Assembly (NCBI GenBank): GCA_038231275.1 | Contig: JBBRLQ010000010.1 | Span: forward strand, 64,001 to 128,000 | Direction: 5' to 3' | Length of the DNA stretch: 64,000 nucleotides | Source of the DNA: Polyangiales bacterium | GTDB lineage: Bacteria; Myxococcota_A; Polyangia; Polyangiales; Polyangiaceae | Part shown: piece by piece, positions 41,801 to 44,800 of the stretch | How the letters are laid out: each line of letters starts with the position of its first letter | Numbering within the stretch: the first letter of the stretch is position 1 | Made by a program: the position numbers

Positions 41801-44800
41801 GCGCTCTCCTTCTTCGCGTTGGCCGTCGTCGCGACCGCGGCGTGCTCTGCGGCGCCCTCGCACAGTGGCTTCAGCGAAGGCAACGCAACGGGCTCGAGCG
41901 GCGGCGCCGTCGGCGGTGGAAGCAGCGGCGGGGGGACGACACCCGGCTTCGGCGGCGACGGAGGGACACCGGCCACCGGCGGGACCTGCAGCCCCAACGC
42001 CGCCAGCGCGGAGATCGCCGACAACGGCTGCGACGACGACGCCAACGGCAAGATCGACGACGTCGCCGCGTGCGATGACGGCCTCGCCATCGACGGCACG
42101 GCCGGTGACTTCGCGAAGGCGATCGGGGTCTGCGACGTCGCCGCATCGCGCGGCTTCGGCCTCGTGAGCGCCTCGTACTCGAACGGCTACGGCCGCGCCG
42201 ACGCCCCGCAGCAGGGGCAGTGGGGACTCCTCCCCAAATTCGGCTCGTCGCTGACTCCGCGCGAAGGTCACCTCCTCGGCGCCATCAGCTCCGGCTACGC
42301 GCGCGAGTACGATTCGCCGAGCGGCACCGGCACGCCGTTCTTCAAGATCGGCCCGCTCGATGGCACCTCCTATCCGACCGGCGCGGCCCCCAGCGGCTTC
42401 CCGCGCGCCGCCGCGGGCTGCCAGCAGGACAACCTCGTCAACGACATGATCGACGTGAAGCTCACGCTCAAGGCGCCCCCCAACGCGCAGGGCTTCAAGT
42501 TCGACTTCGACTTTCACTCGTCGGAGTGGCCCGCGTTCATCTGCACCAACTTCAACGACGCGTTCGTCGCGTACCTCTCGGCGCCGAGCTTCAACGGCGG
42601 CAAGGGCGACAACGTCTCGTTCGACAGCAAGAGCAACCCGGTCAGCGTGAACAACGGCTTCTTCGACCGCTGCACGCCGAACTCTCCCATCGGGTGCGGC
42701 GACGGCAACGCGCCCACTGGCACCGCCGCGTGCCCGGGAGGCCCCGCCGAGCTGGGCGGCACCGGCTTCGGCCTCACCGGCACGCCGATCTCCGCGCCCA
42801 CGTGCGACCCGAGTCAGCCGCAGACCGTCGGCGGCGCGACCGGCTGGCTGACGACGCAGGCGAAGGTCAACGCCGGCGAAGAGTTCACGCTCGAGTTCAT
42901 GATCTGGGACGCGGGGGACGGCGTGCTCGACTCGCTCGTGCTGCTCGACAAGTTCCAGTGGATCGGCGGCGCGGTGACGCCGGGCACCACGCGGCCTCCG
43001 CGCTGACGTCGCCGGCATCTCCTCGTCGTCAACCGGCGGCGTGCTAGATTCTTGGCGTGGAGTCCCTTCTCCGAGGACGCTTGTTCCCCCTTCTCTTCGC
43101 GCTCGCCGGCTGCAGCACGAGTAGCGGCGGCAATTCGGTCGACGCCGCCGCCGACGTCACCGAGGAGACCGGCGCGCGCGACACCGGAAAGGACGGGCCC
43201 GATCTCGACGCCGGCGCCGACGTGGGGAAGGCCGCGCCGGGCGTGGGCTTCGTCGCGTGCGGCGCCAGCCAGTGTGCGATCCCCGGCGAGGTGTGCTGCC
43301 CGCGCGTCGACGGCGGCGCCTGCTTCCCGCGAGGCGCGGCGCCGTGCAGCGGGATCGAGTGCGATCAGCCGGACGACTGCGCCGATGGCACGACGTGCTG
43401 CTACCAATTCCCTGCCGGCTGCGCCGACGTATCGGCGACGTGCAAGAAGACGTGCGGCGCCGCGGACGTGCCCGCGTGCCTTGGCCTGACCGACTGCAAT
43501 GCCTGCGTGTCGCTCACGTGCGCCGGCGTCCCGCTGACGACGTGCGGGACCGACGGCCTCTGCTGCCACTGAGAGTAGAGCGAGCGCTCGCGTCAGCCCT
43601 TCTCGACGTCCTTGCCGGACTTCTCCCATCCGCGGATGCCGGCGGGCATCACGTACACGTTCGCGTATCCGAGGTTCTCCGCTGCGACCGCAGCGGTGTG
43701 GCACGCGTGTCAGAGCTCGTTAGCGCAGTAGAAGACGAGGGTGGCGTCCTTGTCGGGGGGCAGATCGCCCGCCGTCACTTTGTCGAACGCGACCCACTTG
43801 GCGCCGGGGACGTGGCTCTTCGTCCAGCGCTCTTTGTCGTTGTTGTCGAAGATGAAGGTCTTCCCATCATGCCGGGCGATGCGCGAGGCGACGTCGTCCA
43901 CGCTCAGCTCTTTCAGCGGAGCGCCGCTCGCGGACTTCTTCGCGCAGCCCGCGGCCAAGGCGGCGAGCATCGCGGCGCTGAGCACGAAGGCACGACGGTT
44001 CATGCGCGAAACTCTAGCGCGCCCACACCGGTTCGGCCAGTCGCGGCGTCGTTCTCGCGATCAAACGGGCCCCCATCGGACATCTCCCGGTCGGCGAGAG
44101 TCGATGCGTCGAAAGTCAGCGGACAAGCAGAGCCTGAAGCTCCCGATCGAGCTCGTCGTCGAGATGAGGGGTGAGGCGAGGCGCCTCGACAAATCGCTCT
44201 CGTGGGTGGCGCAAGAGGCCTGGCGCCGCGCCAAGGAGCGCATTCGAGCGCTCCCGGGCGTGCGCGACGTCGAGTGATTTACTCGTCGATGGCCTTGGGC
44301 GACGACGCGAGCGTGCAACGCGGCGCGCTCGACGCACGACGCGATCGCCCTGGTGTCGCTGGCAAGCGGCAGCGTCGGAGGGCTCCGCGTTCGCGCCTTA
44401 AACGGTCCGGGCGAGCTGCTCGTCGGCGATGACCGTCGCGTGCACCTCGTGTCGAACCACCGCCTGCCGCGGATCCCTCGTTCCCCAGTCGCGGCAAATG
44501 TTCCCGAACGCGTCGACCCCGTCCTCATCCTGACGCCCGGCGCCCAGTAGTAGGGAGTAGAGGGGAGCAGCCTCGACGGAATCTGCCGCTCTCGGTGGAA
44601 TCCGTCGAGAGCACGGAGAAGAAAGCCGCAAGAGACGTGAAGGATCGGTGGTGCGTCGGGCCGTGTGCGGACATATGCAGCGGCATGATGCACGCGCCGC
44701 GCAGCCTGGTTCGTTTCTCTCGTCTCGGTCTGGTCGGTCTGGTCGCCGGTGTCGCTGCGCTCGCGTGCAGCGGCGCATCGTCGCCGGGCGGAACAGGCGG

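What a model noticed while it worked through the whole genome (the two positions that open the first line are those of the whole stretch)
43593..44003. A rhodanese-like lipoprotein with a Cx4U selenocysteine motif and conserved SECIS
The gene at C10:107593-108003 (minus strand) reads through an in-frame TGA (codon 98, motif YCANEL-U-HAC) as selenocysteine. The TGA and a stem-loop 16 nt downstream are kept in orthologues of at least three families of the order, and more distant homologues have Cys there. The Cx4U form falls below the cut-offs of the curated rhodanese selenoprotein models.
Evidence so far: - The coding score continues past the TGA, and the Pfam Rhodanese match is cut at the TGA. 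- The translation has a lipoprotein-type signal. - 7 places in 7 of 31 genomes have exactly one in-frame TGA at this spot, and 5 more distant places have none. - Sec aligns with Cys in 4 of 4 TGA-less homologues. - A 7-bp stem with a GGUC loop is kept by compensatory changes in 5 of the 7 (G000, G001, G002, G015, G034); G007 keeps a similar stem with a 5-nt loop, and G036 folds differently. - SelA, SelB and tRNA-Sec lie at C13:5385-10057. - NCBIfam gives TsoB 41 bits against a cut-off of 805, and rhodanese_LYCAU 36 against 115. - A review lists five other rhodanese forms and none with Cx4U (PMC13188914 [...]
(Added by a program. Inside this text positions count along the whole contig: contig position 64,001 is position 1 of the stretch shown here. 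"Call 12" and the like, gene names such as g00115 and contig names such as C1 are that model's own, and its searches are not shown. The text may have been shortened before it was handed on; [...] marks where a part breaks off. The agent that wrote the report below was given it as the finding of a first reader that could run no searches.)

Follow-up and report, generated by a model that had tools for sequence, protein, structure and literature searches.

The report
Unannotated selenocysteine rhodanese lipoprotein gene
A small exported sulfur-transfer-type protein whose gene reads a stop codon as selenocysteine; the gene is real and is routinely annotated as a truncated protein, but its selenocysteine site is of a type already catalogued in other bacteria.

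Summary
Window 43593-44003 (-) encodes a 136-residue lipoprotein with one rhodanese domain. It has an in-frame TGA at codon 98, in the motif FYC-ANEL-U-HACH.

Evidence that the TGA encodes selenocysteine:
- The same TGA occurs in 22 of 201 sampled genomes of the order and in 5 genomes elsewhere in the phylum.
- Cys occupies that column in 19 of 19 TGA-less orthologues examined.
- All 26 distinct downstream sequences meet the published bacterial SECIS constraints, in 10 hairpin versions, against 15 of 84 Cys forms.
- SelA, SelB, SelD and tRNA-Sec are present.

In a public protein collection, 101 of the 120 listed homologues end exactly before this codon, so annotation misses the family.

The claim of a new Cx4U form does not hold. 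The catalogued "form 1" rhodanese selenoprotein, listed as UxxS, reads FYC-GGVT-U-VLS. Several other catalogued sequences also carry Cx4U.

This is a single-domain, Myxococcota member of a known class. The likely mechanism is inferred, not shown: Cys93 and Sec98 form a redox pair in the active-site loop of a periplasmic protein. The substrate is unknown.

The parts
43593..44003 (-). Whole coding sequence: 136 residues including Sec98, plus the terminal TGA stop at 43593-43595
   Evidence: orthologues over the full length
43944..44003 (-). Signal peptide ending in a lipobox-like LAAG-C (Cys20)
   Evidence: A hydrophobic stretch followed by [AGS]-C was found by pattern in 41 of 47 family genes. 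By eye, 4 more have it, 1 is cut by a contig end, and 1 (L148) has no signal peptide.
43620..43892 (-). Rhodanese domain, residues 38-128, spanning the TGA
   Evidence: Pfam PF00581, 50.4 bits. AlphaFold2 model with pLDDT about 98 over residues 30-136. Best solved match is 3nhv, TM-score 0.72.
43725..43727 (-). Codon of Cys93, aligned with the catalytic Cys of rhodaneses; invariant in the family
   Evidence: phmmer alignment to 6mxv and 3nhv; invariant column in 57 of 57 sequences
43710..43712 (-). In-frame TGA read as Sec98, five residues after Cys93
43698..43703 (-). Codons of Cys101 (Cys or Ser in relatives) and His102 (at least 90% conserved), in the first turn of helix 100-110
43679..43696 (-). 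SECIS-like hairpin: 7-bp stem CCGCUGC/GCAGCGG, loop GGUC, 20 nt between the UGA and the loop

Best explanation
The gene encodes a small lipoprotein exported to the cell envelope. It consists of one rhodanese domain whose active-site loop carries the canonical Cys93 and, five residues later, a selenocysteine. The Sec is encoded by UGA and inserted by SelB with tRNA-Sec, guided by a hairpin in the coding sequence just downstream.

The protein belongs to the C-x4-[C/U]-x2-[S/C]-H subgroup of rhodanese domains. That subgroup also contains the catalogued 'form 1' rhodanese selenoproteins of Desulfobacterota.

The mechanism is inferred, not shown, and I put it at about 0.5. Cys93 takes up the substrate chalcogen, as a persulfide, perselenide or mixed adduct. 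Sec98 sits at the end of the loop, at the start of helix 100-110, and attacks it. This gives an intramolecular Cys93-Sec98 selenenylsulfide and releases the product. A periplasmic thiol reductant then re-reduces the pair. On this reading the protein is a two-chalcogen redox rhodanese rather than a plain sulfur carrier. The substrate is unknown.
For: UGA conservation:
- One in-frame TGA at the same column occurs in 22 of 201 genomes of the order, in families f1, f11, f13 and f17 (sequences).
- It also occurs at 6 places in 5 genomes outside the order.

Cys/Sec pair:
- Cys occupies that column in 19 of 19 TGA-less orthologous loci examined.
- Protein sequence stays conserved after the TGA (A1 and A2).

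SECIS:
- 26 of 26 distinct Sec-form downstream sequences, from 29 genes, meet the published bSECIS constraints. These are a loop of 3-9 nt, a G in the first two loop positions, 16-37 nt from the UGA to the loop, and at most -7.5 kcal/mol (review Fig. 2 legend).
- Only 15 of 84 distinct Cys-form sequences meet them. There are 10 hairpin versions with compensating changes.
- In family f17 the same residues AARQA are coded GCC GCG CGG CAG GCU in Sec forms, which makes the stem. In Cys forms they are coded GCG GCC CGC CAG GCG, which does not.

Machinery:
- SelD, SelB, SelA and tRNA-Sec all score over their cut-offs in this genome.
- 20 of the 22 genomes with the TGA form have SelA, against 63 of 201 genomes overall.
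- The other two, G125 and G181, have SelB and SelD.

Annotation gap:
- 101 of 120 listed database homologues end exactly before the Sec column.

Active site:
- Cys93 aligns with the catalytic Cys of 6mxv. U98 aligns with its +5 Arg, and with the second Cys of 3nhv's C-x4-C.
- The model puts Cys93 after strand 88-92 and starts the helix at residue 100.

Relationship to form 1:
- Form-1-type sequences carry FYCGG..U..S.
- Multi-domain Cys homologues P0150 and P0249 align with this protein at 27-38% identity over the aligned segments that span the motif, with both Cys columns in register.

That Sec sits almost only at redox-active or nucleophilic catalytic positions is established knowledge (reviews PMC13188914 and PMC9312934, passages).
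Against: - There is no protein-level evidence and no RNA evidence; no RNA run is listed.
- Hairpins are common in this GC-rich coding sequence. 15 of 84 Cys forms pass the same test, and the energy z-score of the window's 76-nt stretch is 0.21.
- The genomes are related to one another, so the counts overstate independence.
- The redox-pair mechanism rests on position and analogy only.
- No conserved gene neighbour points to a partner or a substrate. Thioredoxin-like neighbours occur at only 2 of 34 related loci scanned, L086 and L106.
- Cys101 is Ser in 3 of the 29 Sec forms (L007, L015, L151), so a three-residue relay cannot be essential.
- The form 1 exemplar sequences could not be aligned by a tool, so similarity to them was judged by eye.
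Confidence: 0.85

Rival explanations
1. Sec98, not Cys93, is the primary acceptor. The protein would be a carrier that holds sulfane sulfur or selenium on Sec as a selenotrisulfide or selenenyl persulfide and passes it on in the envelope. Cys93 would only assist. This would make it a selenium- or sulfur-trafficking lipoprotein, like the role proposed for the rhodanese-like lipoprotein ExtH next to the selenite porin ExtI in Geobacter.
For: Sec is the better nucleophile (established chemistry). Rhodanese-like lipoproteins have been linked to selenite handling (PMC5877670, PMC6148476 and PMC8981825, passages). Form 2 rhodanese selenoproteins place Sec at the catalytic position itself (IYU..G).
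Against: Cys93 is invariant in 57 of 57 aligned sequences and occupies the canonical catalytic position. ExtH is a 49-kDa protein and was not shown here to be a relative. No porin or cytochrome neighbour was found at the 34 related loci scanned or around the window's own gene.
Confidence: 0.25
2. The C-x4-U-H-x-C-H cluster is a metal- or metalloid-binding site, for example for Hg, Cu, As or Cd. The protein would be an envelope chaperone or detoxifier, not an enzyme of sulfur chemistry.
For: Cys93, Sec98, Cys/Ser101 and His102 are soft ligands clustered within 10 residues. His102 is at least 90% conserved. Metal-binding selenoproteins are catalogued (MbdU and a putative mercuric transport protein in the review table).
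Against: His99 varies (H, T, M, L, S) and Cys101 is often Ser. No metal-resistance gene was seen among neighbours at the 34 related loci scanned or around the window's own gene. The fold and loop are those of catalytic rhodaneses.
Confidence: 0.1
3. One reading: this is a separate, sixth form of rhodanese selenoprotein, not a member of the form 1 class.
For: The architecture differs: a single domain of 136 residues against multi-domain proteins of more than 400. Identity to multi-domain Cys homologues is only 27-38% over the aligned segments that span the motif. The lineage differs (Myxococcota against Desulfobacterota). No curated model reaches its cut-off. No longer fused form was found at E <= 1e-6 (weak evidence).
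Against: The Sec column and the surrounding signature C-x4-U-x2-[S/C] are the same as in the form 1 exemplar and its relatives. The review's own rule separates forms by Sec site or motif (PMC9312934 passage), and by that rule the site is not new.
Confidence: 0.2
4. The TGA is a true stop. The gene would be a truncated rhodanese or a pseudogene, and the downstream frame would be a remnant.
For: Public gene calls end there: 101 of 120 listed homologues. NCBI records of 96-114 residues exist.
Against: A truncated product would lack the last third of the domain (profile positions 4-70 of 102). The downstream 38 codons are conserved as protein across 29 TGA-bearing genes, with no second stop. Cys replaces the TGA in orthologues. 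The hairpin and the Sec machinery co-occur with the TGA.
Confidence: 0.02

Closest known systems
Rhodanese-like domain-containing selenoprotein 'form 1' (exemplar WP_010941598.1, Geobacter sulfurreducens; attributed by the reviews to Zhang & Gladyshev 2005, a paper I did not see)
   Same: It has a rhodanese domain with Sec five residues after the catalytic Cys and Ser/Cys three residues after Sec: FYC-GGVT-U-VLS against FYC-ANEL-U-HAC. Relatives in Desulfobacterota selenoproteomes read FYCGGPTU and carry lipoprotein-type signals. By eye, about half of the 50 residues from LPPDKD to GW are shared with one of them. This was not computed.
   Different: Form 1 proteins have more than 400 residues, with an N-terminal domain and several rhodanese domains. 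The window's protein is one domain of 136 residues, in Myxococcota. It has His after the Cys/Ser (U-x-A-[C/S]-H). Identity to multi-domain Cys homologues is 27-38% over the aligned segments that span the motif.
TsoB, rhodanese/DsbD fusion-like selenoprotein (NF045694)
   Same: The review lists the motif UxxxxU, the same spacing. The best NCBIfam hit of the window protein is to the rhodanese part of this model (residues 78-135 to model positions 101-158).
   Different: The score is 41.4 bits against a cut-off of 805. There is no DsbD-like membrane domain, one Sec rather than two, and no Tso operon. No TsoB was found over the cut-off in 301 genomes of the phylum. The source paper (Haft & Tolstoy 2025) is not held, so the column equivalence of Ux4U is inferred.
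rhodanese_LYCAU (NF041203; 'form 3', CxU)
   Same: A small exported rhodanese with the catalytic Cys kept and Sec inside the active-site loop. The hit covers the whole length (residues 15-134 to model positions 5-124).
   Different: Sec is two residues after Cys, not five (LYCAU). The score is 36 bits against a cut-off of 115.
BH2092 of Bacillus halodurans (PDB 3nhv, 3o3w)
   Same: It is the best structural match (TM-score 0.72, rmsd 1.5 A). Its C-x4-C loop aligns without gaps to C93-x4-U98.
   Different: It has Cys rather than Sec, 24% identity, and is a structural-genomics entry whose title states no function.
Classical single-domain rhodaneses (GlpE 1gmx, PspE, YgaP)
   Same: Same fold, with the catalytic Cys at the start of the loop.
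   Different: They have a single Cys and no second chalcogen residue at +5. The window protein's loop is two residues longer than that of 6mxv.
ExtH, rhodanese-like lipoprotein of the Geobacter extHIJKL cluster
   Same: A rhodanese-type lipoprotein of the envelope, discussed in connection with selenite entry.
   Different: It is 49 kDa, is encoded beside a porin and cytochromes, and was not compared by sequence here. It is a functional lead only.

Membership tests
Bacterial selenoprotein gene (SelB-dependent UGA recoding) | In-frame UGA conserved at one column among orthologues | tested here: met
   22 of 201 genomes of the order, plus 6 places in 5 genomes outside it
Bacterial selenoprotein gene (SelB-dependent UGA recoding) | Cys in homologues at the Sec column | tested here: met
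   19 of 19 TGA-less loci. Invariant C/U column in 57 of 57 sequences; the 38 rows were selected by a pattern that demands Cys.
Bacterial selenoprotein gene (SelB-dependent UGA recoding) | bSECIS hairpin downstream (loop 3-9 nt, G in the first two loop positions, 16-37 nt from UGA to loop, at most -7.5 kcal/mol) | tested here: met
   26 of 26 distinct Sec sequences against 15 of 84 Cys sequences; criteria from the PMC13188914 Fig. 2 legend
Bacterial selenoprotein gene (SelB-dependent UGA recoding) | selA, selB, selC and selD in the genome | tested here: met
   all over their curated cut-offs
Bacterial selenoprotein gene (SelB-dependent UGA recoding) | Selenium in the protein | not testable with these tools
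   needs 75Se labelling or mass spectrometry
Pfam Rhodanese (PF00581) | Score over the gathering cut-off, and the catalytic Cys at the start of the active-site loop | tested here: met
   50.4 bits against 22.2; Cys93 aligns with the catalytic Cys of 6mxv; model has strand 88-92 then the loop
Form 1 rhodanese-like selenoprotein (WP_010941598.1 type) | Sec five residues after the catalytic Cys, followed by x-x-[S/C] | tested here: met
   Motifs read from PMC12013277 supplements. Both Cys columns are in register with multi-domain Cys homologues P0150 and P0249.
Form 1 rhodanese-like selenoprotein (WP_010941598.1 type) | Multi-domain architecture (more than 400 residues, several rhodanese domains) | tested here: not met
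   136 residues, one domain; no longer relative at E <= 1e-6
Form 1 rhodanese-like selenoprotein (WP_010941598.1 type) | Closer by sequence to form 1 Sec domains than to other rhodaneses | tested here: inconclusive
   Exemplar sequences could not be given to the tools. Cys homologues are 27-38% identical over the aligned segments that span the motif. No joint tree was made.
rhodanese_LYCAU (NF041203) | Score of at least 115 bits and the CxU motif | tested here: not met
   36 bits; the motif here is Cx4U
TsoB (NF045694) | Score of at least 805 bits, a DsbD-like fusion, and two Sec residues | tested here: not met
   41.4 bits, only residues 78-135 matched; one Sec; 136 residues
Bacterial lipoprotein | Signal peptide ending in a lipobox with an invariant Cys | tested here: met
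   LAAG-C at residues 16-20. Pattern found in 41 of 47 family genes, plus 4 by eye. Lipidation itself is not testable here.

The most novel reading that the evidence does not exclude
The single-domain C-x4-U-x2-C-H lipoprotein could be a functionally distinct envelope selenoenzyme of mostly aerobic, soil and sediment Myxococcota. It might reduce or mobilise an external chalcogen species such as selenite, polysulfide or thiosulfate at the cell surface. It could also be a main reason these genomes keep the Sec machinery. This genome has selABCD, but searches with two formate dehydrogenase families found no Sec-type formate dehydrogenase, and a crude genome scan found no other convincing candidate. 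The repeated Sec/Cys switching and the tandem Sec+Cys paralogues would then reflect adaptation to selenium supply.
Probability: 0.15. Interest if true: 0.6.

Novelty: new member of a known kind. Interest (0 to 1): 0.3.

Why it matters
Annotation:
- A whole family of Myxococcota genes is being called as 93-118-residue fragments that lack the last third of the domain and the Sec residue.
- 101 of the 120 listed clusters in one protein collection end this way. They include the NCBI records MBK7584648.1, WP_407738639.1 and HVY46763.1.
- A dedicated profile with a Sec exception would repair these records.

Catalogue:
- Listing form 1 only as 'UxxS' hides the catalytic Cys five residues upstream.
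- The shared signature C-x4-[C/U]-x2-[S/C] links form 1, this family, TsoB's Ux4U and a large set of Cx4C rhodaneses, including a solved structure of unknown function. This gives one active-site hypothesis to test.

Biochemistry:
- The family offers many natural Sec/Cys pairs, some encoded side by side. These are convenient material for asking what Sec adds to a rhodanese loop.

It is not a new kind of system.

Tried and rejected
- Gene neighbourhood: Pfam scan of 108 ORFs, 6 around the window's gene and 102 at 34 related loci. No family recurs across lineages. SDR genes recur only within Sandaracinaceae, and thioredoxin-like genes occur at 2 loci. No partner could be inferred.
- Fused forms: a search among proteins of 241-2000 residues found none at E <= 1e-6. 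This is weak evidence.
- TsoB in relatives: 0 of 301 genomes of the phylum scored over the cut-off. Only ordinary DsbD-like proteins matched.
- Genome-contig scan: the pattern it derived demanded Cys at the Sec column, so it could return only Cys forms. L080 is the exception, where a Sec copy lies beside a Cys copy. The scan says nothing about the spread of Sec forms outside Myxococcota.
- Expression: no RNA holder is listed for this stretch.
- Other selenoproteins in the genome: no match at E <= 1e-20 to TIGR01553, and one TGA-free partial match to TIGR01591. A crude scan for in-frame TGA with coding signal on both sides plus a hairpin gave 40 candidates, of which only this gene looked real to me. 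The scan is not exhaustive, so I do not claim this is the only selenoprotein.
- Energy significance of the single hairpin: z = 0.21, not informative.
These are known here only through citing papers.
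Full report
1. THE OBSERVATION

The minus strand of window 43593-44003 has these features:
- It opens with ATG at 44003.
- It has an in-frame TGA at codon 98 (43710-43712).
- It ends at a second TGA at 43593-43595.

Read through, it gives 136 residues. 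The N-terminus is MNRRAFVLSAAMLAALAAG-C, a signal peptide with a lipobox-like end. The active-site stretch is FYC-ANEL-U-HACH.

Pfam Rhodanese matches residues 38-128 at 50.4 bits, covering profile positions 5-101 of 102. The 97-residue ORF that stops at the TGA matches only positions 4-70, at 28.1 bits. GC3 is 0.91 in the 45 codons before the TGA and 0.86 in the 28 codons after it.

2. IS THE TGA A SEC CODON?

Conservation of the TGA:
- In a sample of 201 genomes of the order, 22 genomes have an orthologue with exactly one TGA inside the match.
- By family code these are 4 in f1 (including this genome), 2 in f11, 1 in f13 and 15 in f17.
- I read all 22 and the TGA is at the same column in each.
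- In a sample of 301 genomes of the phylum, 6 further places in 5 genomes outside the order have it at the same column. These are G409 (two places), G249, G391, G330 and G350.
- I did not test those five genomes for Sec machinery.

Cys at the same column:
- The 19 TGA-less orthologous loci fetched all have Cys there.
- In the 57-sequence alignment A2, Cys93 and the C/U98 column are both invariant.
- The 38 rows of A2 that came had been selected by a pattern that demands Cys, so they add nothing on this point.
- The 38 codons after the TGA are conserved as protein in all 29 TGA-bearing genes, with no second internal stop.

Sec machinery:
- This genome has SelD (382.8 bits, cut-off 125), SelB (254.8, cut-off 242), SelA (535.1, cut-off 268) and tRNA-Sec (66.3, cut-off 47).
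- SelA is found in 63 of the 201 sampled genomes, and in 20 of the 22 genomes with the TGA form.
- The other two, G125 and G181, have SelB over its cut-off. They also have a SelD gene that itself contains one TGA.
- These genomes are related to one another, so the association is not a statistical test.

3. THE HAIRPIN

In the window, a 7-bp stem CCGCUGC/GCAGCGG with loop GGUC lies at 43679-43696. There are 20 nt between the UGA and the loop.

I applied the published bacterial SECIS constraints from the Fig. 2 legend of PMC13188914:
- an apical loop of 3-9 nt;
- a G in the first two loop positions;
- 16-37 nt from the UGA to the loop;
- free energy of at most -7.5 kcal/mol.

Results:
- All 26 distinct downstream sequences of the 29 Sec-form genes pass.
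- Only 15 of 84 distinct Cys-form sequences pass.
- Mean hairpin energy is -12.0 kcal/mol for Sec forms and -4.2 for Cys forms.

There are 10 hairpin versions at the same place:

| 5' arm | Loop | 3' arm |
|---|---|---|
| CCGCUGC | GGUC | GCAGCGG |
| CCGCCGC | GGUC | GCGGCGG |
| AGGCGC | CGUGA | GCGCCU |
| GGGCGC | CGGGC | GCGCCC |
| UGGCGC | CGGGC | GCGCCA |
| GGCCGCC | CGGGU | GGCGGUC |
| GCCGCG | CGUGU | CGCGGC |
| UGGCUGCC | CGUGU | GGCGGUUA |
| GCGCGGCA | GGC | UGUCGCGC |
| GCGCGGCA | GGC | UGCCGCGC |

The stem changes by compensating substitutions, many of them at synonymous third positions of Ala codons.

In family f17, Sec and Cys forms encode the same residues AARQA but use different codons. 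The Sec forms use GCC GCG CGG CAG GCU, which pairs. The Cys forms use GCG GCC CGC CAG GCG, which does not.

The folding energy of the window's 76-nt stretch by itself is not unusual (z = 0.21). The case for the hairpin rests on the comparison across genes.

4. HOW PUBLIC ANNOTATION TREATS THE FAMILY

Of the 120 listed homologues in a large protein collection:
- 101 end exactly before the Sec column (FYCxxxx at the C-terminus);
- 17 are full length, 15 with Cys at that column, one with W and one with L;
- 2 did not fit either pattern.

NCBI records MBK7584648.1 (96 aa), WP_407738639.1 (106 aa) and HVY46763.1 (114 aa) are named 'rhodanese-like domain-containing protein' and end there. No NCBIfam model reaches its cut-off on the window protein.

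5. WHAT KIND OF RHODANESE

Alignment to solved rhodaneses:
- phmmer puts Cys93 on the catalytic Cys of 6mxv.
- U98 falls on that protein's Arg at +5, with a two-residue longer loop in the window protein.
- The C-x4-C of BH2092 (3nhv) aligns without gaps to C93-x4-U98.

Structure:
- The AlphaFold2 model has mean pLDDT 88.4, about 98 over residues 30-136.
- It has strand 88-92, then the loop, then helix 100-110.
- This places Sec98 at the loop end and Cys101 and His102 in the first turn of the helix.
- The best structural match is 3nhv, with TM-score 0.72.

An exhaustive profile-free search gave 2781 representatives at E <= 0.001 and 607 at E <= 1e-10. Many of these proteins have two or three domains with FYCGGxxCxLSH-type loops.

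Two such three-domain proteins align with the window protein with both Cys columns in register:
- P0150 (393 aa, itself with a lipoprotein-type signal), 33-38% identity in its two motif-spanning segments;
- P0249 (360 aa), 26-27% identity in its two.

6. COMPARISON WITH THE CATALOGUE, AND WHY THE NOVELTY CLAIM FAILS

The review PMC13188914 lists five rhodanese selenoprotein forms (table passages):

| Form | Motif listed | Model or exemplar |
|---|---|---|
| 1 | UxxS | WP_010941598.1 |
| 2 | UxxG | |
| 3 | CxU | NF041203 |
| 4 | UxxG | |
| 5 (TsoB) | UxxxxU | NF045694 |

The motif column shows only the residues next to Sec.

The supplement of PMC12013277 prints exemplar sequences:
- File 3, row 23 gives WP_010941598.1, which reads LVFYC-GGVT-U-VLS. 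This is Cx4U-x2-S, in a protein of more than 423 residues.
- File 3 also shows form 2 as IYU-AIGGRS, with Sec at the catalytic position, and form 3 as LYCAU.
- File 1 holds selenoproteomes of several organisms. The only organism heading visible in the passages I read is Desulfolithobacter dissulfuricans GF1.
- File 1 has further 'Rhodanese-like domain-containing protein' entries with [LI][IV]FYCGGPTU[GR][ML]S. These are proteins of about 480 residues, two of them with lipoprotein-type signals.
- Other entries in file 1 carry TYCLSQQU, TYCASGTU and TYCMGFRU.

By eye, one of the FYCGGPTU proteins shares roughly half of the 50 residues from LPPDKD to GW with the window protein. I did not compute this, because those sequences were not entered into any tool.

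The Sec position and the signature C-x4-U-x2-[S/C] are therefore already on record. The window's family is a single-domain, Myxococcota member of that class. Whether it deserves a form of its own is a matter of convention. The Sec site itself is not new.

7. EVOLUTION AND TAXONOMY

- In a tree of 126 family sequences (29 Sec, 97 Cys; 108 columns, quick method), the Sec/Cys label needs 12 changes. Well-supported branches alone force at least 5.
- Sec and Cys forms are therefore interleaved.
- G129 (L023) and a named Polyangiales MAG (L080) carry a Sec copy and a Cys copy in tandem on the same strand.
- Rows identical between coded and named genomes place f1 in Polyangiaceae and f22 in Sandaracinaceae.
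- Cys forms also occur in records labelled Flavobacteriales, Thermoanaerobaculia, Usitatibacter, Planctomycetota and Bdellovibrionota.

8. FUNCTION

What is shown:
- The protein is exported as a lipoprotein-type precursor. The pattern is found in 41 of 47 family genes, plus 4 by eye. One gene is cut by a contig end, and one, L148, lacks a signal peptide.
- It has a rhodanese fold.
- Cys93 and Sec/Cys98 are invariant, and His102 is nearly invariant.
- Residue 101 is Cys or Ser. It is Ser in 3 of the 29 Sec forms.

What is inferred:
- Cys93 and Sec98 form a redox-active selenenylsulfide pair.
- The protein is re-reduced in the periplasm. A DsbD-like gene exists in this genome at C18:190876-192099, but nothing links it to this gene.

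The substrate is unknown. No neighbour is conserved across the window's own region and the 34 related loci scanned. The Geobacter rhodanese-like lipoprotein ExtH, discussed in connection with selenite entry, is a lead by analogy only.

9. VERDICT

This is a real selenoprotein gene that annotation misses, and it is well supported by comparison across genomes. It is a new member of a known class, not a new form of Sec site. No protein-level or RNA evidence exists.

Noticed in passing
L023 (G129:C72:9802-10805) and L080: A Sec-form gene and a Cys-form gene of this family lie in tandem on the same strand, about 250 bp apart. This may be a selenium-independent backup copy.
   Followed up: partly
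G125:C76:108-650 and G181:C817:2277-3215: SelD in these relatives has one in-frame TGA, so SelD is itself a selenoprotein there. The window genome's SelD (C64:5837-6766) has none.
   Followed up: no
G000 whole genome: The full selABCD machinery is present, but searches with two formate dehydrogenase families found no Sec-type formate dehydrogenase. A crude TGA scan recovered only this gene as convincing. The rest of the selenoproteome is unknown.
   Followed up: partly
L148 (G409:C21:7395-7712): A Sec-form family member with no signal peptide or lipobox; the frame starts at MDEIPEL. It may be a cytoplasmic variant. The same genome also has a lipoprotein-type Sec copy (L149).
   Followed up: no
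window 43057-43569 (+) and 45897-47012 (+): Two Cys-rich predicted lipoproteins with no Pfam match. The first converges on the rhodanese gene, with about 20 bp between the stops. The second consists of repeated C-G-x-C-type units.
   Followed up: no
window 44104-44274 (+): A 57-residue ORF divergent from the rhodanese gene. From recollection its sequence looks like a ribbon-helix-helix DNA-binding protein. It had no Pfam hit at E <= 1e-5.
   Followed up: no
window 40101-41594 (+) and 44595-45806 (+): Flanking genes: a protein with a 5'-nucleotidase C-terminal domain and an EF-hand pair, and a Phosphoesterase-family (PF04185) protein with a Gly/Ser/Thr-rich linker.
   Followed up: no
P0167 (2327 aa): A giant protein with 16 rhodanese-like repeats, each carrying VVCYTGHTASQ.
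   Followed up: no
(two full-length database homologues): One gene call has W and one has L at the Sec column (FYCANAHWDACH, FYCANEFLHACH). The W may come from calling with a TGA=Trp code.
   Followed up: no
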